From a virus (Duplodnaviria; Heunggongvirae; Uroviricota; Caudoviricetes): a DNA stretch of 5,816 nt. Where the stretch lies: IMG/VR virus record IMGVR_UViG_3300013903_000020. One strand, 5' to 3'. Position 1 is the stretch's first letter, and each line of letters opens with the position of its first letter. Shown here piece after piece: positions 1 through 5,816 of this stretch. The position numbers and the translations under genes were made by a program. The notes beneath the pieces are model-generated. The model did no database searches, had not been told where the DNA came from, and was given only the letters and a program-made list of their open reading frames with translations.

Positions 1-180
1 CGAACCTTCCGTGAGAAATATTCCGAGTCTCCCATTTCAGCTACTGACTGGTACTATAGATTTAGCCGCGATGATGGTAAATGTTGTAATGACCTTGAAT
101 TTTTCAGTTGCACTTGCCTGAAATGCGATCGAGCAGGTGAGTGCGAGGCCCCCCAAGAGCATGGTTACTTTTTTTATTGA
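1..180 (+). CDS. 3'-terminal fragment of an unidentified gene entering from upstream of the window (Cys-rich C-terminus ...CCNDLEFFSCTCLKCDRAGECE...)
   Basis: Frame 1 is open from base 1 to a TGA at 178-180 (59 codons) with protein-like composition and several Cys pairs. There is no in-frame start inside the window, so it is absent from the ORF track. Identity unknown. Confidence 0.3.
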   Translation, partial: RTFREKYSESPISATDWYYRFSRDDGKCCNDLEFFSCTCLKCDRAGECEAPQEHGYFFY

Positions 181-260
181 GCGCATAATTTAGTACCTAT
201 AGTGAGCAAAATTAGAACAAACATAGCAACGGCTATGTTTTATAGCATAACCTATACAAA

Positions 261-544
261 ATGAAAATGATTATCATTAACAACTTTGAGGCCCAAAACA
301 GGGATTAGTTTGTTTCCTGCTGGATGAAAGGACTCTTGGGATAGCACATGCCGCACGAAGAGCAGCATTACATGATGTTTTGTCGAATGAGCTACGAATC
401 CTGATAGAAATACGAAACAAGCTAGCACATGGACAATGGATCTATCCCTTCAATAATGAAGGAAATACTGTGGACCCTGATAAATTTAAATTAATCGATA
501 AAGAAAACTTGCAGTCACTTCAATTCAAATATTCATTAGCATAG
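261..544 (+). pseudogene. Disrupted small ORF with a HEPN-like R-x4-H motif (possible abortive-infection or toxin remnant)
   Basis: ATG at 261 opens a 15-codon frame-3 ORF (MKMIIINNFEAQNRD) ending at TAG 306-308. Frame 2 is open from 290 to TAG 542-544 and encodes ...ELRILIEIRNKLAHGQWIY..., with RNKLAH at 413-430. A single-base change in the A-run near 295-298 would fuse both parts into one ORF of about 97 aa. No Shine-Dalgarno sequence upstream of 261. Confidence 0.3.
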
Positions 545-813
545 CATTTAGCTGATGCTGTACATGATTTGGTTGTAAGTCCTACGACATTCGAACGAGA
601 TTTCGAAAGCCATTTTAAAAATTCTTTTACGTCCGCTCCTCGCTCATAACAGGCATTCACTACATTTGTCTTCATTGGCTATGCAAGTCGTAATACAAGG
701 TGGGGCAAAACTGAGACACATAAGGTCTCTCACAAAGGTCTGCAAGGCCTCACATGTATTGAGATGTTAATAAAATGTAGACTTGTAATTTTGATATAAA
801 TGGTAGATAAAAC

Positions 814-826
814 CTTTCCCCAAAAT
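814..826 (+). promoter_or_regulatory. Isolated copy of the TTCCCCAAAA motif; candidate integrase arm-type site on the far (P-arm) side of the icd segment
   Basis: CTTTCCCCAAAAT at 814-826 matches the three tandem repeats at 1175-1211 and lies about 120 bp upstream of where icd homology starts. Confidence 0.3.
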
Positions 827-911
827 AAAAACGAACGTCAATGAAATCAAACGGTTGAATAAAGTTGATTTTGGCTAATAAAAAAACAATAAAATAATTT
901 TTATCATTAAA

Positions 912-924
912 TATCAATTACTTG
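912..924 (+). promoter_or_regulatory. IHF-consensus-like site (WATCAANNNNTTR) next to the putative attachment core
   Basis: TATCAATTACTTG at 912-924 fits the IHF consensus at every specified position, in an AT-rich context about 20 bp upstream of the icd-homologous segment. Confidence 0.3.
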
Positions 925-943
925 AACTTAATGTTTTTATATA

Positions 944-1108
944 CTGCTGCGCCATATGGGCTGGACTGAAGCCGCAGACCTGATTGTTAAAGGTATGGAA
1001 GGCGCAATCAACGCGAAGACCGTAACCTATGACTTCGAACGTCTGATGGAAGGCGCTAAACTGCTGAAATGTTCAGAGTTTGGTGATGCGATCATCAAGA
1101 ATATGTAA
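944..1108 (+). pseudogene. icd: icd 3'-terminal segment (last about 54 codons of isocitrate dehydrogenase), phage-associated attachment-site copy, not a full gene
   Basis: Translation [54 protein letters not shown] matches the Icd C-terminus as I recall it. The frame is closed by TAA at 929-931 and upstream sequence is AT-rich non-icd DNA, so only the 165-bp tail is present. Confidence 0.85.
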
Positions 1109-1131
1109 TCACTACATGTGTTAAATATTGA

Positions 1132-1160
1132 AACGGGCGTATAACACGCCCGTTGTTTTA
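1132..1160 (+). terminator. Rho-independent terminator downstream of the icd segment
   Basis: Stem AACGGGCG (1132-1139), loop TATAACA, stem CGCCCGTT (1147-1154), then GTTTTAT. Sits 24 bp after the icd stop codon. Confidence 0.7.
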
Positions 1161-1174
1161 TGATGATGTAAAAT

Positions 1175-1211
1175 CTTCCCCAAAACTTTCCCCAAAACCC
1201 TTCCCCAAAAC
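1175..1211 (+). repeat. Three tandem direct repeats (C)TTCCCCAAAAC; candidate integrase arm-type binding sites (P'-arm analogue)
   Basis: CTTCCCCAAAAC (1175-1186), TTTCCCCAAAAC (1187-1198) and CCTTCCCCAAAAC (1199-1211) are head-to-tail, ending 11 bp before the int stop codon at 1222-1224. A fourth copy lies at 814-826. Confidence 0.6.
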
Positions 1212-1221
1212 TGGCTATTTT

Positions 1222-2364
1222 CTATGCTGTTTTGATATCTACGATAATCCAGTCTTTACCACGATCATCATTGTATCGGTCGGTCATTTTTCTGGATTTA
1301 TGGCCTAACAACTTTTGCGTATCCAGACCCTGTTCCCGATATAACCGTTCTGACAGAGATCGCTGCTCATGAAATGTGGGCGCAGTTCCTTGCTCCCATT
1401 TTATGCCACATTTTTCCCTGGCCTTTTTAAAAGCCGTTGTCAGAGTATTCGCAGAAACCTGGTCTCCTCTGTTTGCTTGAGAGGTTGTGTGACGGTAATG
1501 GACCAGATATTTACTAACAACAGCATCCCTGCACTGAGATATAACTTCACGAAGGGTAATATTCAGAGCATCGCATTTCAGGTTAAGCGGAATAGCAAGT
1601 TTTGAACCGGTTTTTTCCTGAGTAATGTGCAACATGTCGTCCCAGATATCAGAGAATTTCAAATTGCAGATATCGCCTAAACGTTGTCCAGTGACAAGAG
1701 CAAGTAGCATCCCGCATTTTAAATAGGGCTGCCGTCTGCTTACGCTGTCAAATATTGCCTGCCATTCGGGCAGTGATAATCTTTGGCGGTTTACTCGATT
1801 TCGCGGTTGTTTTGTTGCCTGCGCTGGGTTAAATCCTGGCGGAACATGTCCTGCGTGTTGTGCTTCTTTGAAGACGTCGATTAACACCATTCTCACGACT
1901 TGCGCCATCCTGTTATGACCTTCAGCCTTTACAGCATCAATTATTTCGGCAATATCAAGTGCGGTAATATCCTTGAGGTGTTGCATTCCACAATGCTCAC
2001 GGAAAAGACGAATGGGTTTGCCTTTTTGCCGATAGGAGTTGGGTCTTAGTTCATTATGTTGCAGCCTGTCCTCCTGGATAGAAATATATTTATCAAGCCA
2101 TTCTGTCACCGTAATGTCTGAGCGCCTGCCTTTCATTCTTTCCAGACGCTCATTGACGCTTAATATTTGTCGGGTACGTTGTTCAGCAATAATGGTATTT
2201 GCTTCAGTAGCAACTTGTTTTGCTTCATTCTCATCAGTTCCTAAGCTATGAAAACGACCGGATAGTGGATGTTTGTATTGCCAATATACCTTTCCGGTTC
2301 GCTTATCTAATTTGCAATATAAATTGGGTATAGAGATTTTGTGAGATCGGGGTCTAGCAGCCAT
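1222..2364 (-). CDS. int: Tyrosine-family site-specific integrase (e14 IntE / phage-21 Int-like, icd-targeting)
   Basis: 380-aa ORF with tyrosine-recombinase hallmarks: TGQR, H-E-Q-R (HxxR), and GHKS...TDRY with the catalytic Tyr near the C-terminus. It lies beside the att-like icd segment and overlaps the upstream xis by 11 nt. Confidence 0.95.
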   Translation of the reverse strand: MAARPRSHKISIPNLYCKLDKRTGKVYWQYKHPLSGRFHSLGTDENEAKQVATEANTIIAEQRTRQILSVNERLERMKGRRSDITVTEWLDKYISIQEDRLQHNELRPNSYRQKGKPIRLFREHCGMQHLKDITALDIAEIIDAVKAEGHNRMAQVVRMVLIDVFKEAQHAGHVPPGFNPAQATKQPRNRVNRQRLSLPEWQAIFDSVSRRQPYLKCGMLLALVTGQRLGDICNLKFSDIWDDMLHITQEKTGSKLAIPLNLKCDALNITLREVISQCRDAVVSKYLVHYRHTTSQANRGDQVSANTLTTAFKKAREKCGIKWEQGTAPTFHEQRSLSERLYREQGLDTQKLLGHKSRKMTDRYNDDRGKDWIIVDIKTA

Positions 2365-2590
2365 CAGCGATTATCCGTTGGAGTTTTGGGTTTGCGTTTA
2401 TTGGGAGTTGCGGTTCTGCAAGCGTTCCTACAAAACGGGAATTTCGGTCAATCATCCAGTAGCGACCAACTTTTATAGCTGGTGGGGCCATCATTTTCCC
2501 TTGCGCGTATTTTTTCAGAACTCGCTCACTTGGTGCTAAGTCCCCAAATTCTTCTTTAGCCCAGTCCTGTAAAGTGATTAGTCGAGACAT
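2354..2590 (-). CDS. xis: Excisionase / recombination directionality factor (XisE-like)
   Basis: 78-aa ORF immediately upstream of int with an 11-nt overlap and a strong SD (GAGGAGG, 4 nt before the ATG). Small basic protein in the canonical xis position. Confidence 0.8.
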   Translation of the reverse strand: MSRLITLQDWAKEEFGDLAPSERVLKKYAQGKMMAPPAIKVGRYWMIDRNSRFVGTLAEPQLPINANPKLQRIIADGC

Positions 2591-2729
2591 TTGTCCTCCT
2601 CTTAGCTGCTGAGGGAGTTTGTGACCGATATATCTGACATGATATTAAGCTCATGGCAGGTACATCTCATGACTGGTCATAGAGATAAATTTAATGCTGA
2701 GAAATGCAGTATTGAATTTATCAATTTTT

Positions 2730-2969
2730 CTATTTCCTGCGTATGGCACGTAACTTCTTAATGTGTTCTGCCGTTTCGATCTCTTCTGCTATCCGATCTG
2801 CATCAGCTTTATTCACAGGTTCAAAGTCATGATTAAAGCGGAACATGCTGGCGATACATGTTCTGCCTTTTCGGATGTAGTGAACTTTGTTATGGGTAGA
2901 ACGCAGGATTTTGCAGGGAGTGCCGTGGTGGTCGACGTACCAGGTGTTAGGGTAAATCACTCTGAACAT
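2730..2969 (-). CDS. Hypothetical small protein (79 aa) of the early-left operon
   Basis: ATG-initiated ORF on the same strand as int/xis, overlapping the stop of the upstream gene by 23 nt. Protein-like composition but no motif I recognise; SD is weak. Confidence 0.45.
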   Translation of the reverse strand: MFRVIYPNTWYVDHHGTPCKILRSTHNKVHYIRKGRTCIASMFRFNHDFEPVNKADADRIAEEIETAEHIKKLRAIRRK

Positions 2970-3279
2970 TCTTGACCTTGTGTTGTGCGGATTGATATTC
3001 AGTGGTGATATTCACCTTTATAGCGAACACCTTTACCGGTTTATCGCCAAAGTGCGGATGTGTGATTGTCTTCACTTCATATCCGTCATACGGAACATCA
3101 ATTCTGCGACTGGAATCGTCGCGCTTCGGATATCCCTTTGTGATAATCAGGCGGTCATATTCCCGGAACATAATTCGCTTATTCCAGTAGTCATTACACA
3201 AGCGATACTCTTCCGTTTTCTCTCCGCGAATCATGGCATCGAAGTATTCACTTTTAACAGCAAGTTGCAGGTTAGCCAT
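2947..3279 (-). CDS. ASCH-domain-like protein (GxKxxExR motif)
   Basis: The ORF is open to 3345, but the Met at 3277-3279 gives MANLQ... and its ATG overlaps the TGA of the upstream TraR-like gene (TGATG). IRGEKTEEYR carries the ASCH signature G-x-K-x-x-E-x-R. Confidence 0.6.
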   Translation of the reverse strand: MANLQLAVKSEYFDAMIRGEKTEEYRLCNDYWNKRIMFREYDRLIITKGYPKRDDSSRRIDVPYDGYEVKTITHPHFGDKPVKVFAIKVNITTEYQSAQHKVKNVQSDLP

Positions 3280-3500
3280 CACTTCATCCCCCTTTGTTTG
3301 CGGATAAGCTCCAGATCTTGCTGGCAACTGGCGCAAGTCCGACAACCCTGAACGGCCAGTCGTCTTCGTTCATCTATCGGATCGCCACACTCACAACAAT
3401 GAGTGGCAGATACAGCCAGGTAGTTCAGGCGGCGCATTTTTATTGCTGTGTTGCGCTGTAATTCTTCTATTTCTGATGCTGAATCAATGATGTCTGCCAT
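3279..3500 (-). CDS. TraR/DksA-family C4 zinc-finger protein
   Basis: 73-aa ORF with two CxxC pairs (C-C-E-C ... C-R-T-C) spaced as in the DksA/TraR zinc finger. Typical small early gene of lambdoid prophages. Confidence 0.85.
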   Translation of the reverse strand: MADIIDSASEIEELQRNTAIKMRRLNYLAVSATHCCECGDPIDERRRLAVQGCRTCASCQQDLELIRKQRGMK

Positions 3501-3552
3501 CTTTCATTAATCCCTGAACTGTTGGTTAATACGCTTGAGGGTGAATGCGAAC

Positions 3553-3576
3553 AATAAAAAAGGAGCCTGTAGCTCC
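3553..3576 (-). terminator. Putative rho-independent terminator for leftward transcription
   Basis: On the minus strand: GGAGC-tacag-GCTCC hairpin (plus 3562-3576) followed by TTTTTTAT (plus 3554-3561), 22 nt downstream of the stop at 3599. Stem is only 5 bp. Confidence 0.4.
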
Positions 3577-3598
3577 CTGATGATTTTGCTTTTCATGT

Positions 3599-3880
3599 TC
3601 ACCGTTCCTTAAAGACGCCGTTTAACATGCCGATCGCTAGGCTTAAATGAGTCGGTGTGAATCCCATCAGCGTTACTGTTTCGCGGTGCTTCTTCAGTAC
3701 GCTACGGCAAATGTCATCGACGTTTTTATCCGGAAACTGCTGTCTGGCTTTTTTGATTTCAGAATTAGCCTGACGGGCAATGCTGCGAAGGGCGTTTTCT
3801 TGCTGAGGTGTCACTGAACAAGCCCCATGTCGGCAAGCATAAGCACACAGAATATGAAGCCCGCTGCCAGAAAAATGCAT
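3599..3880 (-). CDS. Small hypothetical early-left protein (93 aa from ATG 3880; 71 aa if started at GTG 3814)
   Basis: ORF in the track. The first 22 residues (MHFSGSGLHILCAYACRHGACS) look non-native and the ATG lacks an SD. A GTG at 3812-3814 overlaps the TGA of a 27-codon upstream ORF (GTGA) and gives VTPQQENALRSIARQ... Confidence 0.5.
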   Translation of the reverse strand: MHFSGSGLHILCAYACRHGACSVTPQQENALRSIARQANSEIKKARQQFPDKNVDDICRSVLKKHRETVTLMGFTPTHLSLAIGMLNGVFKER

Positions 3881-3894
3881 TCAGTGGTTGTCAT
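3811..3894 (-). CDS. Candidate 27-aa hydrophobic peptide (MTTTECIFLAAGFIFCVLMLADMGLVQ), translationally coupled between two small genes
   Basis: ATG at 3892-3894 overlaps the TGA of the 63-aa gene (ATGA) and its own TGA overlaps the GTG at 3814 (GTGA). One predicted hydrophobic helix. Below the ORF-track length threshold; may be spurious. Confidence 0.2.
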   Translation of the reverse strand: MTTTECIFLAAGFIFCVLMLADMGLVQ

Positions 3895-4082
3895 ACCTGG
3901 TCTCTCTCATCTGCTTCTGCTTTCGCCACCATCATTTCCAGCTTTTGTGAAAGGGATGTGGCTAACGTATGAAATTCTTCGTCTGTTTCTACTGGTATTG
4001 GCACAAACCTGACTCCAATTTGAGCAAGGCTATGTGCCATCTCAATACTCGTTCTTAACTCAACAGGAGATGCTTTGTGCAT
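3891..4082 (-). CDS. Small hypothetical protein (63 aa), first gene of the leftward small-gene cluster
   Basis: ATG at 4080-4082 preceded by a strong SD (GGGAGG, 4 nt spacing). Acidic C-terminus and no obvious helix-turn-helix. Confidence 0.6.
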   Translation of the reverse strand: MHKASPVELRTSIEMAHSLAQIGVRFVPIPVETDEEFHTLATSLSQKLEMMVAKAEADERDQV

Positions 4083-4196
4083 ACCGCCTCCCGTTTATTA
4101 TTTATCTTCTCAGCCAGCCGCTGTGCTTTCAGTGGATTTCTGATAACAGAAAGGCCGGGAAATACCCAGCCTCGCTTTGTAACGGAGTGGACGAAA

Positions 4197-4619
4197 GTGA
4201 TCGCGCCTAATCAGGATGTCGTTGCCGCACTCATTGTGAATGAGTATCGAGCACAGGGCGGCGTCACCATCGATTTTCCTGATGATGTCAGTCGGGCACG
4301 CCAGAAGCTGTTCCGCTTCCTCGATAACAAATTCGATTCTGAAAAATACCGAAATAACGTGCGTGAACTGACCCCGGCAATTCTGGCGGTACTACCGCTG
4401 GAATATCGCGGCCACCTGGTTGAGCAGGATAGCTTCATGGCTAGGTTGGCTGAAATGGAAAAGGAACTCAGTGAGGCAAAACAGGCTGTCATTCTCAACG
4501 CACCACGCCACCAGAAATTGAAGGAAATTAGTGAAGGTATTGTGTCGATGTTTCGTGTGGACCCGGATCTGGCTGGTCCATTGATGGCGATGGTTACTAC
4601 CATGCTGGGGGCGATATGA
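4197..4619 (+). CDS. Early regulatory protein in the cII slot (possibly CII/YdaT-like), immediately upstream of the replication initiator
   Basis: The ORF is open from GTG 4077, but that start overlaps the divergent 63-aa gene and the first 40 residues look non-native. GTG 4197 has GGAG 9 nt upstream and gives 140 aa with a coiled-coil-like segment (MARLAEMEKELSEAKQ). Family not verifiable by eye. Confidence 0.5.
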   Translation: MIAPNQDVVAALIVNEYRAQGGVTIDFPDDVSRARQKLFRFLDNKFDSEKYRNNVRELTPAILAVLPLEYRGHLVEQDSFMARLAEMEKELSEAKQAVILNAPRHQKLKEISEGIVSMFRVDPDLAGPLMAMVTTMLGAI

Positions 4620-4705
4620 CAGGTTCAGAAATGGCGAAAGCCGGTCTGCTGGAACAGAACCGACTTTCAGGTGCAAATCGTAACACACTCATTGCGGGAG
4701 GAATT

Positions 4706-5635
4706 ATGGCAAACACTGCTGAGATATTCAATTTTCCAGTGCCGGATGCGGCACAAAAGGAGCCGCGCGTGGCAGATCTCGATGATGGTTATACGCGCAT
4801 TGCAAATGAGTTGCTGGAAGCTGTGATGCTGGCCGGATTAACACAGCACCAGCTTCTGGTCTTTCTGGCTGTCATGCGCAAAACATATGGCTTTAATAAA
4901 AAACTGGATTGGGTTAGCAACGAGCAACTTTCCGAATTAACCGGGATATTGCCGCACAAGTGTTCTGCTGCAAAAAGTGTTCTGGTAAAGCGTGGGATTT
5001 TTATTCAGAGCGGGCGGAATACCGGCATTAATAATGTGGTCAGTGAATGGTCAACATTACCCGAATCAGGTAAGAAAAATAAAGTTTACCTGAAAGAGGT
5101 AAATTTACCTGAATCAGGTAAAAAAAGTTTACCCAAATCAGGTAAAGGCGTTTACCCGAATCAGGTAAACACAAAAGACAAACTAACAAAAGACAATATA
5201 AAACCTTTTTCGTCCGAGAATTCTGGCGAATCCTCTGACCAACCAGAAAACGATCTTCCTGTGGTGAAACCGGATGCTGCAATTCAGAGCGGCAGCAAGT
5301 GGGGGACAGCAGAAGACCTGACCGCCGCAGAGTGGATGTTTGACATGGTGAAGACCATCGCGCCATCAGCCAGAAAACCGAATTTTGCAGGGTGGGCTAA
5401 CGATATCCGCCTGATGCGTGAACGTGACGGACGTAACCACCGCGACATGTGCGTGCTGTTCCGCTGGGCATGCCAGGACAACTTCTGGTCCGGTAACGTG
5501 CTAAGTCCGGCCAAACTCCGCGACAAGTGGACCCAACTCGAAATCAACCGTAACAAGCAACAGGCAGGCATGATAGCCAGAAAACCAAAACTCGACCTGA
5601 CAAACACTGACTGGATTTGCGGGGTGGATTTATGA
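4706..5635 (+). CDS. O: Lambda O-like replication initiator
   Basis: From ATG 4706 (SD GGGAGG at 4696-4701) the N-terminus MANTAEIFNF...VADLDDGYTRIANELLEA...MRKTYGFNK...SEQLSELTG matches the lambda O N-terminal DNA-binding domain as I recall it. An iteron array sits in the central linker. The ORF-track start at 4616 is probably a spurious extension. Confidence 0.9.
   Translation: MANTAEIFNFPVPDAAQKEPRVADLDDGYTRIANELLEAVMLAGLTQHQLLVFLAVMRKTYGFNKKLDWVSNEQLSELTGILPHKCSAAKSVLVKRGIFIQSGRNTGINNVVSEWSTLPESGKKNKVYLKEVNLPESGKKSLPKSGKGVYPNQVNTKDKLTKDNIKPFSSENSGESSDQPENDLPVVKPDAAIQSGSKWGTAEDLTAAEWMFDMVKTIAPSARKPNFAGWANDIRLMRERDGRNHRDMCVLFRWACQDNFWSGNVLSPAKLRDKWTQLEINRNKQQAGMIARKPKLDLTNTDWICGVDL
5057..5210 (+). 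repeat. Origin of replication: five 19-bp iterons (TTTACCyGAATCAGGTAAA, each an internal TTTACC/GGTAAA inverted repeat) followed by an A+T-rich segment
   Basis: Iterons at about 5057-5073, 5085-5103, 5104-5122, 5128-5146 and 5151-5169, then an AT-rich tract at 5170-5210. They lie inside the O-like gene linker, as in ori-lambda. Confidence 0.75.
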
Positions 5636-5816
5636 AAAACATCGCCGCACAGATGGTTAACTTTGACCGTGAGCAGATGCGTCGGATCGCCAACAACATG
5701 CCGGAACAGTACGACGAAAAGCCGCAGGTACAGCAGGTAGCGCAGATCATCAACGGTGTGTTCAGCCAGTTACTGGCAACTTTCCCGGCCGGGCTGGCTA
5801 ACTGCGACCCGAGTGA
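5632..5816 (+). CDS. P: Lambda P-like replication protein (helicase loader), 5' partial, continues beyond the window
   Basis: ATG at 5632 overlaps the O stop (ATGA) with GGGGTGGA upstream. MKNIAAQMVNFDREQMRRIANNMPEQYDEKPQVQQVAQIINGVFSQLLATFPAGLAN closely matches the lambda P N-terminus from memory. Confidence 0.9.
   Translation, partial: MKNIAAQMVNFDREQMRRIANNMPEQYDEKPQVQQVAQIINGVFSQLLATFPAGLANCDPS

What the first reader, a model, noticed from the sequence alone, without database searches (positions are those of the whole stretch)
814..1221. attP-like arrangement: an icd 3' segment flanked by non-icd DNA on one side and int on the other
Only the last 165 bp of icd is present (944-1108); the frame is closed at 929-931 and upstream is AT-rich non-icd DNA carrying a repeat copy and an IHF-like site. 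A simple prophage attL would have the rest of icd upstream, and an attR would not have int downstream. The layout therefore looks like an intact attP (P arm, core, icd tail, P' arm, int), as in a free or circular phage genome, a tandem-lysogen junction, or a rearranged site.
Basis: partly seen in the sequence, partly recalled or inferred. Interest (0 to 1): 0.55.

Follow-up and report, generated by a model that had tools for sequence, protein, structure and literature searches.

The report
Phage 21-type attP site at icd
This is the ordinary, already described attachment site (attP) of a phage 21-like E. coli phage, which carries a spare end of the host icd gene so that integration does not break icd; the only odd points are that the element is a crippled prophage and that the contig is chimeric.

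Summary
It is a known structure.

**Anatomy**
- Window 814-1221 has the layout of the phage 21 attP.
- The P arm (814-943) is 21.5% GC. It holds one exact arm-type dodecamer, YYTTCCCCAAAA (814-825), and the window's only two IHF-consensus matches (845-857, 912-924).
- A 215-bp block homologous to the host follows (945-1159). It comprises the last 165 bp of icd (944-1108) and the icd terminator hairpin (1132-1154).
- Three tandem dodecamers come next (1174-1210), then int and xis on the minus strand.
- Free phage genomes (3W, 4A7, 1W; phage 21 from 662 on) are colinear with this region at 94-98% identity.
- Natural polymorphism places the crossover in 945-954.

**Context**
- The two sides match the two ends of a ~24-kb doubly deleted prophage. 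In the complete genomes and long contigs inspected it is integrated at icd (attR side 99.5%, attL side 99.9%).
- Window 1-72 is 100% identical to an Oscillospiraceae galT gene, so the contig is chimeric.
- I cannot tell whether the P-to-P' join is a real circle or tandem junction, or a mis-join across the direct repeat. A true tandem di-lysogen exists in E. coli FXCREC028.

Novelty: already known. Interest: low.

The parts
1..72 (+). Foreign fragment: in-frame piece of a galactose-1-phosphate uridylyltransferase (galT) gene of a gut Oscillospiraceae (Faecousia-like) bacterium. It is joined to sitA through a 7-bp microhomology, CCGCGAT (66-72). It marks the contig as chimeric and is not part of attP.
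   Evidence: 100% identity over 1-72 to four human-gut metagenome contigs. The host ORF is a 499-aa GalT (PF01087 and PF02744). The best genome relatives are Faecousia/Oscillospiraceae MAGs. There is no match in E. coli genomes, plasmids or phages.
66..186 (-). 5' end of sitA (signal peptide and first residues), cut off at the chimeric junction. sitABCD is the cargo operon next to attP in phage 21-like genomes.
   Evidence: Alignment to sitA of CEA601S, 3W and phage 21; annotations.
187..813 (.). Phage b-region spacer between sitA and the P arm. Positions 324-661 are a variable cassette; phage 21 has a different insert there, which includes a 252-aa ORF.
   Evidence: BLAST segments; no similarity to the phage 21 252-aa protein.
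814..825 (+). P-arm arm-type Int site (dodecamer CTTTCCCCAAAA), about -136 to -125 from the crossover.
   Evidence: Exact match to YYTTCCCCAAAA, the consensus annotated in the phage 21 record. Lambda P1 sits at -142 to -133.
845..857 (+). IHF-consensus site, H1-like (AATCAAACGGTTG).
   Evidence: Lambda H1 is at -125 to -113; this site is at -105 to -93.
912..924 (+). IHF-consensus site, H2-like (TATCAATTACTTG), next to the core.
   Evidence: Lambda H2 is at -47 to -35; this site is at -38 to -26.
945..954 (.). Crossover (core overlap) interval, TGCTGCGCCA. It is the first 10 bp of identity between phage and icd.
   Evidence: In LF82, attL carries the phage allele T and attR the allele C at the position equal to window 955, so exchange lies left of 955. 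Identity to icd starts at 945. The e14 and 21-type sequences share this left boundary. Whole-tail haplotypes move as blocks: the attR tails of L004 and L007 equal the phage 21 tail.
944..1108 (+). Replacement 3' end of icd (54 codons plus stop). After integration it becomes the working end of icd.
   Evidence: In the lysogen CEA601S the full-length icd ends in this phage-type allele.
1132..1154 (+). icd intrinsic terminator hairpin followed by a T run, carried by the phage inside the host-homologous block 945-1159.
   Evidence: (I11). Identical in attL, attR and attP sequences.
1174..1210 (+). P'-arm: three tandem arm-type Int sites (1174-1185, 1186-1197, 1199-1210), at +224 to +260 from the crossover.
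   Evidence: annotated as subsites P1P2P3 in phage 21, OL657228. e14 has three TTATCAAAA repeats at the same place.
1222..2364 (-). int: tyrosine integrase with a lambda-type N-terminal arm-binding domain.
   Evidence: PF09003 (E 1.8e-28) and PF00589 (E 8.9e-24). The matching gene is WP_000741335.1 in lysogens.
2354..2590 (-). xis: excisionase.
   Evidence: PF07825; annotations.

Best explanation
**What it is.** Window 814-1221 is the attP site of a phage 21-family lambdoid element, in the unrecombined P-core-P' form.

**How it works.** The first step is shown at sequence level only; the rest is inferred from the lambda and phage 21 paradigm.
- Int has an arm-binding and a catalytic domain. 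It should bind the YYTTCCCCAAAA dodecamers, one in the P arm and three in the P' arm, and the core at the left edge of the icd homology.
- IHF should bend the AT-rich P arm at two consensus sites.
- Strand exchange with attB inside icd falls in TGCTGCGCCA (945-954).
- The phage carries its own copy of the last 165 bp of icd plus the icd terminator, placed between the core and the P' arm. Integration therefore rebuilds a complete icd at attL and pushes the host's old tail to attR as a pseudogene.
- This cassette explains the spacing. The P' sites lie about 170 bp further from the core than in lambda, while the P arm keeps lambda-like spacing.

**Context.** The two arms come from the two ends of one ~24-kb defective 21-like prophage. 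It lacks the exo-to-cro region and the Nu1-to-tail-fibre region.

**My split for why they are joined here:**
- about 0.5 that the join is physically real (excised circle, tandem copy or packaged multimer);
- about 0.4 that it is an assembly mis-join across the direct repeat;
- the remainder is undecided.
For: **Match to known attP sites**
- Colinearity at 97.8-97.9% over 63-1300 with free phage genomes 3W, 4A7 and 1W, which read sitABCD, P arm, icd tail, int.
- The phage 21 record annotates the icd pseudogene, the terminator and the three dodecamers.

**Site content**
- Four exact dodecamers, all in the expected places.
- Both IHF-consensus hits of the window lie in the P arm.
- Int has PF09003 and PF00589; Xis has PF07825.
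- Lambda geometry measured with the same patterns gives P1 -142, H1 -125, H2 -47 and P' +54 to +84. Here the values are -136, -105, -38 and +224 to +260.

**Crossover and tail replacement**
- In lysogens the same tail ends a full-length icd at attL, and a second tail sits at attR.
- LF82 polymorphism limits the crossover to 945-954.
- e14 shows the same design with different arm repeats.

**Literature**
- PMC10111431 states that attP carries a replacement sequence of up to ~250 bp at icd.
- PMC7192596 discusses tandem arrays at icd.
- From memory, because the paper is not held: Wang et al. 1997 (J Bacteriol 179:5705) delimited 21 attP to 366-418 bp, including the outer dodecamers and a 209-bp icd homology. 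The outer dodecamers here span 397 bp.

**Origin of the two arms**
- Window 63-1159 is 99.5% identical to attR of CEA601S, and 945-5816 is 99.9% identical to its attL.
Against: **Against the architecture.** Nothing in the sequence argues against it. Int and IHF binding, and recombination activity, were not and cannot be tested here.

**Gaps relative to lambda.** No P2-like or H'-like site was found by consensus search.

**Against the join being physically real.**
- The 24 longest public contigs carrying this element's O protein show it integrated at icd, as do the complete genomes inspected.
- No sequenced phage among the listed hits carries the 4209/4210 deletion junction contiguously.
- The contig has a demonstrably foreign 72-nt end.
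- The arms are separated by a 143-bp stretch that is identical between the attL and attR copies. An assembler could walk across it wrongly.
Confidence: 0.9

Rival explanations
1. Assembly artefact. The sample held an E. coli with the defective prophage normally integrated. The assembler joined the attR left flank to the attL right flank through the shared icd tail, producing a false attP-form contig.
For: - The attL and attR copies of CEA601S are identical over 945-1086 and differ at only four positions up to 1159.
- The contig is only 5.8 kb. It ends inside genes that occur in several copies in E. coli (sitA, also on plasmids; the lambdoid P gene).
- Its left end is a 72-nt Oscillospiraceae fragment, which shows that the assembly contains chimeric material.
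- The 24 longest contigs with this O protein are in the attL form.
Against: - The galT join uses only a 7-bp microhomology. It therefore looks like a chimeric read or fragment, not a k-mer mis-join, and says little about repeat handling.
- The tail in the window is purely the attL allele, as Int-mediated excision predicts. About two thirds of random joins within the repeat would give the same result (my estimate).
- Real attP-form junctions of 21-like prophages exist, both in free phages and in a tandem lysogen.
Confidence: 0.4
2. Junction between two tandem copies of the prophage in a chromosome. The copies could arise by double lysogeny, or by unequal exchange between the 215-bp direct repeats.
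For: - E. coli FXCREC028 (and FXCREC048 by the same match) has icd, a full 21-like prophage, an attP-form junction, a second copy, then icd' and ymgL.
- Tandem arrays at icd are discussed in PMC7192596.
- L008 shows a 21-like attR tail followed by a second integrase element.
Against: - Only two of 5,426 complete genomes surfaced with an attP-form join in the listed hits, and both carry a different, intact prophage.
- The six complete genomes holding this deletion variant matched the int side only from 945 onward; CEA601S, the one inspected, holds a single copy.
Confidence: 0.15
3. An excised, free circular copy of the defective element, formed by Int and Xis or by RecA between the repeats. It might replicate from its O/P origin or be packaged as a multimer by a helper lambdoid phage.
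For: - int and xis are intact.
- O, P and the ori iterons are present.
- The integrated relative keeps cosN, GGGCGGCGACCT, plus 64 bp beyond it.
- Excision and attP formation of a 21-type icd prophage have been measured experimentally (PMC10111431).
Against: - The deletion removes pL, N, cI, cro and pR, so the usual routes to xis, O and P expression are gone.
- At 24 kb the element is below lambda packaging size as a monomer (established knowledge).
- There is no direct evidence of circles.
Confidence: 0.3
4. A simple prophage end (attL or attR), or host DNA that normally lies downstream of icd.
For: The icd tail and terminator (945-1159) are shared with both attL and attR.
Against: - attL has icd coding sequence left of 945, and the window does not.
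- attR has ymgL/ycgX host DNA right of 1159, whereas the window has the P' dodecamers and int.
- 63-943 is phage DNA, contiguous with int in free phage genomes.
Confidence: 0.01

Closest known systems
Phage 21 attP (GenBank OL657228 and M61865; Wang et al. 1997, J Bacteriol 179:5705, cited from memory)
   Same: - Same order: sitA-side b region, AT-rich P arm, icd 3' pseudogene, icd terminator, three YYTTCCCCAAAA dodecamers, int, xis.
- 94% identity over 662-1300, and 97.5% over 662-3800.
- The outer dodecamers span 397 bp, within the published 366-418 bp minimal attP.
   Different: - The segment 324-661 is a different cassette from the phage 21 insert, which holds a 252-aa ORF.
- There are a few synonymous differences in the tail.
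- The element here has lost its immunity and recombination region.
Phages 3W, 4A7, 1W and Lambda_4C10 (free 49-kb genomes carrying sitABCD)
   Same: Closest free-phage attP. They are colinear over 63-1300 at 97.8-97.9%, including the P-arm variant of the window.
   Different: They are complete phages with exo/bet/gam and an immunity region. The window is not.
Defective 21-like prophage at icd in E. coli CEA601S, 19AR1724, GmF046 and others
   Same: Same element. The attL side is 99.9% identical over 945-5816, including the 4209/4210 deletion junction. The attR side is 99.5% identical over 63-1159.
   Different: There the two ends are separated by ~24 kb and flanked by icd and ymgL. In the window they are joined head to tail.
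e14 attachment site in E. coli K-12 (icd / icdC)
   Same: - Same attB and same left boundary of homology, 165 bp before the icd stop.
- Same design: replacement tail, terminator, then three tandem arm repeats.
   Different: - The arm repeats are TTATCAAAA-type, not TTCCCCAAAA.
- The tail and terminator alleles differ.
- The integrase specificity differs (Wang et al. 1997, from memory).
Lambda attP
   Same: - Arm-type sites on both arms, with three in tandem on P'.
- IHF sites in the P arm at similar distances.
- int and xis adjacent, and Int with the same arm-binding domain.
   Different: - In lambda, P1 to P'3 spans 227 bp, against 397 bp here.
- The extra ~170 bp is the icd tail and terminator between the core and P'.
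- No P2-like inverted arm site or H' consensus was found here.
- Lambda's attB is intergenic, not inside a gene (established knowledge).

Membership tests
Phage 21-type attP (icd-targeting lambdoid integration module) | Adjacent tyrosine integrase with an N-terminal arm-type DNA-binding domain, plus an excisionase | tested here: met
   Int: PF09003 E 1.8e-28 and PF00589 E 8.9e-24. Xis: PF07825 E 6.7e-6.
Phage 21-type attP (icd-targeting lambdoid integration module) | Repeated dodecamers YYTTCCCCAAAA on both sides of the core | tested here: met
   Four exact copies, at 814-825 and 1174-1210. The consensus is taken from the phage 21 record.
Phage 21-type attP (icd-targeting lambdoid integration module) | Phage-borne copy of the last 165 bp of icd plus the terminator, starting at the crossover point | tested here: met
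   Tail 944-1108 with homology to 1159. Same boundary as e14 in K-12.
Phage 21-type attP (icd-targeting lambdoid integration module) | Both arms are phage DNA (P-O-P'), as opposed to attL (B-O-P') or attR (P-O-B') | tested here: met
   Colinear with free phage genomes over 63-1300. Differs from attL left of 945 and from attR right of 1159.
Phage 21-type attP (icd-targeting lambdoid integration module) | IHF binding sites in the arms | tested here: inconclusive
   Two consensus matches, both in the P arm at lambda-like distances. None was found on the P' side. Binding itself was not tested.
Phage 21-type attP (icd-targeting lambdoid integration module) | Int-dependent recombination with attB in icd | not testable with these tools
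   Indirect support only. Lysogens carry matching attL/attR pairs, and polymorphism places the exchange in 945-954.
Free, viable phage 21-like genome | Complete early region (exo/bet/gam, N, repressor, cro) next to the int-xis module | tested here: not met
   A 5.4-kb deletion relative to the LF82 prophage joins DUF1317 to the middle of ydaT at 4208-4210.
Tandem-lysogen junction | attP-form junction flanked by prophage late/cargo genes on the left and a second copy on the right, within a chromosome | tested here: inconclusive
   A precedent was found in FXCREC028. The window's own left flank is cut at sitA by a foreign fragment, so its wider context cannot be read.

The most novel reading that the evidence does not exclude
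The ~24-kb doubly deleted 21-like prophage may not be grounded. It keeps int, xis, O, P, ori iterons and cosN, and it carries sitABCD, iss and a porin gene. It may still excise to a circle, which would be the attP form seen here. It could then be amplified or packaged as a dimer-size multimer by a resident helper lambdoid phage. In that case it would behave as a cos-bearing hitch-hiker that spreads iron/manganese uptake and serum-resistance genes.
Probability: 0.1. Interest if true: 0.5.

Novelty: already known. Interest (0 to 1): 0.13.

Why it matters
As an attP site it adds nothing new. Phage 21 and e14 integration into icd, with a phage-borne replacement of the gene's 3' end, is a classic case. 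Tail plus int matches at 80% or more query coverage in 1,685 of 5,426 complete E. coli genomes.

The result has practical value in two ways:
- It shows how to read such windows. A gene tail with phage DNA on both sides and arm repeats on both sides is attP-form.
- It flags that this contig is chimeric, so structural conclusions drawn from it need support from reads.

If the join were real, a heavily deleted prophage carrying sitABCD and iss would still be excising. That would bear on how these fitness genes move between strains.

Tried and rejected
**Looking for the source contig**
- Window 1-75 against E. coli genomes, and 1-66 against plasmids and phages, gave no match.
- An exact 39-mer in GTDB representatives and IMG/VR gave no match.
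- A 27-mer scan of metagenomes found only Oscillospiraceae galT contigs, not the window itself.
- An exact-protein look-up of the truncated SitA ORF found nothing on record.

**Looking for other attP-form contigs**
- A gapped exact pattern for this P arm plus P' arm in IMG/VR found nothing, probably because of SNPs.
- The look-up of the 50-aa tail ORF showed ten contexts: nine ordinary attR (host ymgL/ycgX) and one, L008, followed by a second integrase element.
- The look-up of the O protein returned only attL contexts.

**RNA**
- Rfam gave nothing significant; the best hit was tpke11 at 20.8 bits against a 43-bit cut-off.
- The sRNA svsR of the related NC-SV prophage lies in cI, which is deleted here. 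C0293 of e14 lies outside the homologous block.

**Other checks**
- The idea that 324-661 is a decayed copy of the phage 21 252-aa ORF found no similarity.
- The idea that 1-62 is an IS end or a diverged sitA was rejected once it proved to be an exact Clostridia galT fragment.
- Wang et al. 1997 could not be read, so its figures are quoted from memory.

Full report
**1. What the window holds.**

The ORF list and Pfam scan show a lambdoid early-left module on the minus strand:
- int at 1222-2364 (PF09003 arm-binding and PF00589 catalytic domains);
- xis at 2354-2590 (PF07825);
- DUF4222, an ASCH-like ORF and a DksA/TraR zinc finger.

On the plus strand there is a truncated ydaT, replication gene O (PF04492) with five ori iterons at 5057-5173, and the start of P. 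Left of int lie the finding's region and the first ~40 codons of sitA on the minus strand.

**2. Check of the observation.**

All elements are present at or next to the stated coordinates.
- The in-frame stop is at 929-931. The 55-codon icd tail is 944-1108, and its first codon is CTG instead of ATG, so unbroken identity starts at 945.
- Homology to the host continues beyond the stop to 1159 and includes the icd terminator hairpin at 1132-1154.
- The upstream 814-943 is 21.5% GC.
- The dodecamer YYTTCCCCAAAA, the consensus annotated in the phage 21 GenBank record, occurs exactly four times in the window. All are on the + strand: 814-825, 1174-1185, 1186-1197 and 1199-1210.
- The IHF consensus WATCAANNNNTTR matches twice in 5.8 kb, and both matches are in the P arm: 845-857 and 912-924.

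**3. What it is.**

*Free phage genomes.*
- Window 63-1300 is colinear at 97.8-97.9% with the free genomes of phages 3W, 4A7, 1W and Lambda_4C10.
- From 662 on it is 94% identical to phage 21.
- In those genomes the order is tail fibre genes, sitDCBA, AT-rich arm, icd tail, int, xis.
- The phage 21 record annotates the tail as an icd pseudogene, then a terminator, then the three-subsite Int site.

*Lysogens.*
- In CEA601S and LF82 the same tail forms the end of a full-length icd at attL. A second tail is left at attR as a pseudogene next to ymgL.
- The window differs from attL left of 945 and from attR right of 1159. It is therefore the P-O-P' form.

**4. Where the exchange occurs.**

- In LF82 the attL tail carries the phage alleles and the attR tail other alleles. 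The leftmost difference is at the position equal to window 955.
- Identity with icd starts at 945, so the exchange lies in TGCTGCGCCA (945-954).
- Several attR tails are complete copies of another phage's tail. L004 and L007 equal phage 21 across the tail, up to the start of host-specific DNA.
- That pattern is expected if each integration displaces the whole tail that a previous phage left behind.
- e14 in K-12 uses the same boundary, 165 bp before the icd stop. It has three tandem TTATCAAAA repeats where this element has its TTCCCCAAAA repeats.

**5. Mechanism.**

I located the lambda sites with the same pattern searches, taking position 332 of locus L104 (the middle of the annotated core) as the centre. 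The window values assume a centre near 950.

| Site | Lambda | Window |
|---|---|---|
| P1 | -142 | -136 |
| H1 | -125 | -105 |
| P2 | -111 | not found |
| H2 | -47 | -38 |
| H' | +33 | not found |
| P'1 to P'3 | +54 to +84 | +224 to +260 |

- The P arm is lambda-like. The P' sites sit about 170 bp further out, which is the size of the icd tail and terminator placed between the core and P'.
- The outer dodecamers span 397 bp. This fits the 366-418 bp minimal attP that I recall from Wang et al. 1997; that paper could not be opened.
- The inferred steps are Int bridging of arm and core sites, IHF bending, exchange at 945-954, restoration of icd by the phage tail, and Xis-dependent reversal.
- The sequence features are shown. 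Protein binding and recombination are inferred.
- PMC10111431 states the general rule that attP carries a replacement of up to ~250 bp at icd. It also measured attP and attB formation for a 21-type icd prophage.

**6. Context of this copy.**

*The element is a deletion derivative.*
- The int side (945-5816) is 99.9% identical to the left end of a prophage found in six complete E. coli genomes at 84% query coverage.
- The P-arm side (63-1159) is 99.5% identical to the right end of the CEA601S copy of that prophage.
- Compared with the intact LF82 prophage, it lacks 5.4 kb, from exo through the repressor and cro into ydaT. The junction is at window 4208-4210.
- It also lacks 19.6 kb, from just after cosN to the tail fibre gene. 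cosN itself is kept.
- The 24 longest public contigs that encode its O protein show the attL context with full icd. No listed phage record has the deletion junction contiguously.

*The contig is chimeric.*
- Window 1-72 is 100% identical to four human-gut metagenome contigs. It lies inside a 499-aa galT gene whose relatives are Faecousia/Oscillospiraceae.
- It meets sitA at a 7-bp microhomology.
- The contig therefore very likely comes from a mixed gut sample.

**7. Is the join real?**

Three origins give the same sequence:
- an excised circle;
- a tandem copy;
- a mis-join through the 143 bp that are identical between the attL and attR tails.

The tail in the window is purely the attL allele, as Int-mediated excision predicts. 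About two thirds of joins at random positions in the repeat would look the same, so this is weak evidence.

A true tandem di-lysogen of a related intact prophage is present in FXCREC028: icd, prophage, attP-form junction, prophage, icd', ymgL.

I put a physically real join at about 0.5 and a mis-join at about 0.4.

**8. Verdict.**

- The feature is a member of a well described family, so novelty is nil and interest is low.
- The residual curiosity is whether this crippled, cargo-rich prophage still excises.

Noticed in passing
window 1-72: This stretch is 100% identical to a galT gene of gut Oscillospiraceae (Faecousia-like). It is fused in frame-less fashion to E. coli phage sitA at a 7-bp microhomology, CCGCGAT. 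The contig is therefore chimeric, and the join looks like a chimeric read or fragment at a contig end.
   Followed up: yes
window 4208-4210: Deletion junction. Relative to the intact LF82 prophage, 5.4 kb is missing: exo, bet, gam, kil, the repressor, cro and the 5' part of ydaT. This leaves a truncated DUF1317 ORF abutting a headless ydaT. Six complete E. coli genomes share the same junction.
   Followed up: yes
window 5057-5173: Five iterons (TTACCYRAAWSAGGTAA, spaced 19-29 bp apart) inside the O gene. This is the lambdoid replication origin.
   Followed up: partly
window 324-661: Variable cassette between sitA and the P arm. Phage 21 and LF82 carry a different ~1.5-kb insert here, with an ORF of 252-256 aa and no Pfam domain. 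The window and phage 3W carry an unrelated shorter segment with only small ORFs.
   Followed up: partly
L014, L102, L103 (E. coli FXCREC028, NZ_CM135822.1, about 154,000-256,500): A true tandem di-lysogen. Two copies of a ~49-kb 21-like prophage lie head to tail at icd, with an attP-form junction between them. One copy of a large inverse-autotransporter gene is annotated as a pseudogene. FXCREC048 gives the same match.
   Followed up: partly
L008 10001-15300: The attR icd tail of a 21-like prophage is followed by DarT and Macro-domain (DarTG-like) genes and a second integrase/excisionase pair. This looks like a tandem array of two different elements at icd.
   Followed up: no
L004-L013, L101 (attR tails, positions equal to window 945-1159): The displaced icd tails at attR are mosaics of several alleles. 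Those of L004 and L007 are identical to the phage 21 tail. This fits serial replacement of the icd 3' end by successive phages.
   Followed up: partly
L003 19901-19912: The defective CEA601S prophage keeps cosN (GGGCGGCGACCT) and 64 bp beyond it. The deletion that removed Nu1 through the tail genes starts inside the presumed cosB.
   Followed up: partly
L105 500-581 (E. coli K-12 attL of e14): e14 has three tandem TTATCAAAA-type repeats at the position where 21-type elements have TTCCCCAAAA repeats. This is a clean example of swapped arm-site specificity on a shared scaffold.
   Followed up: partly
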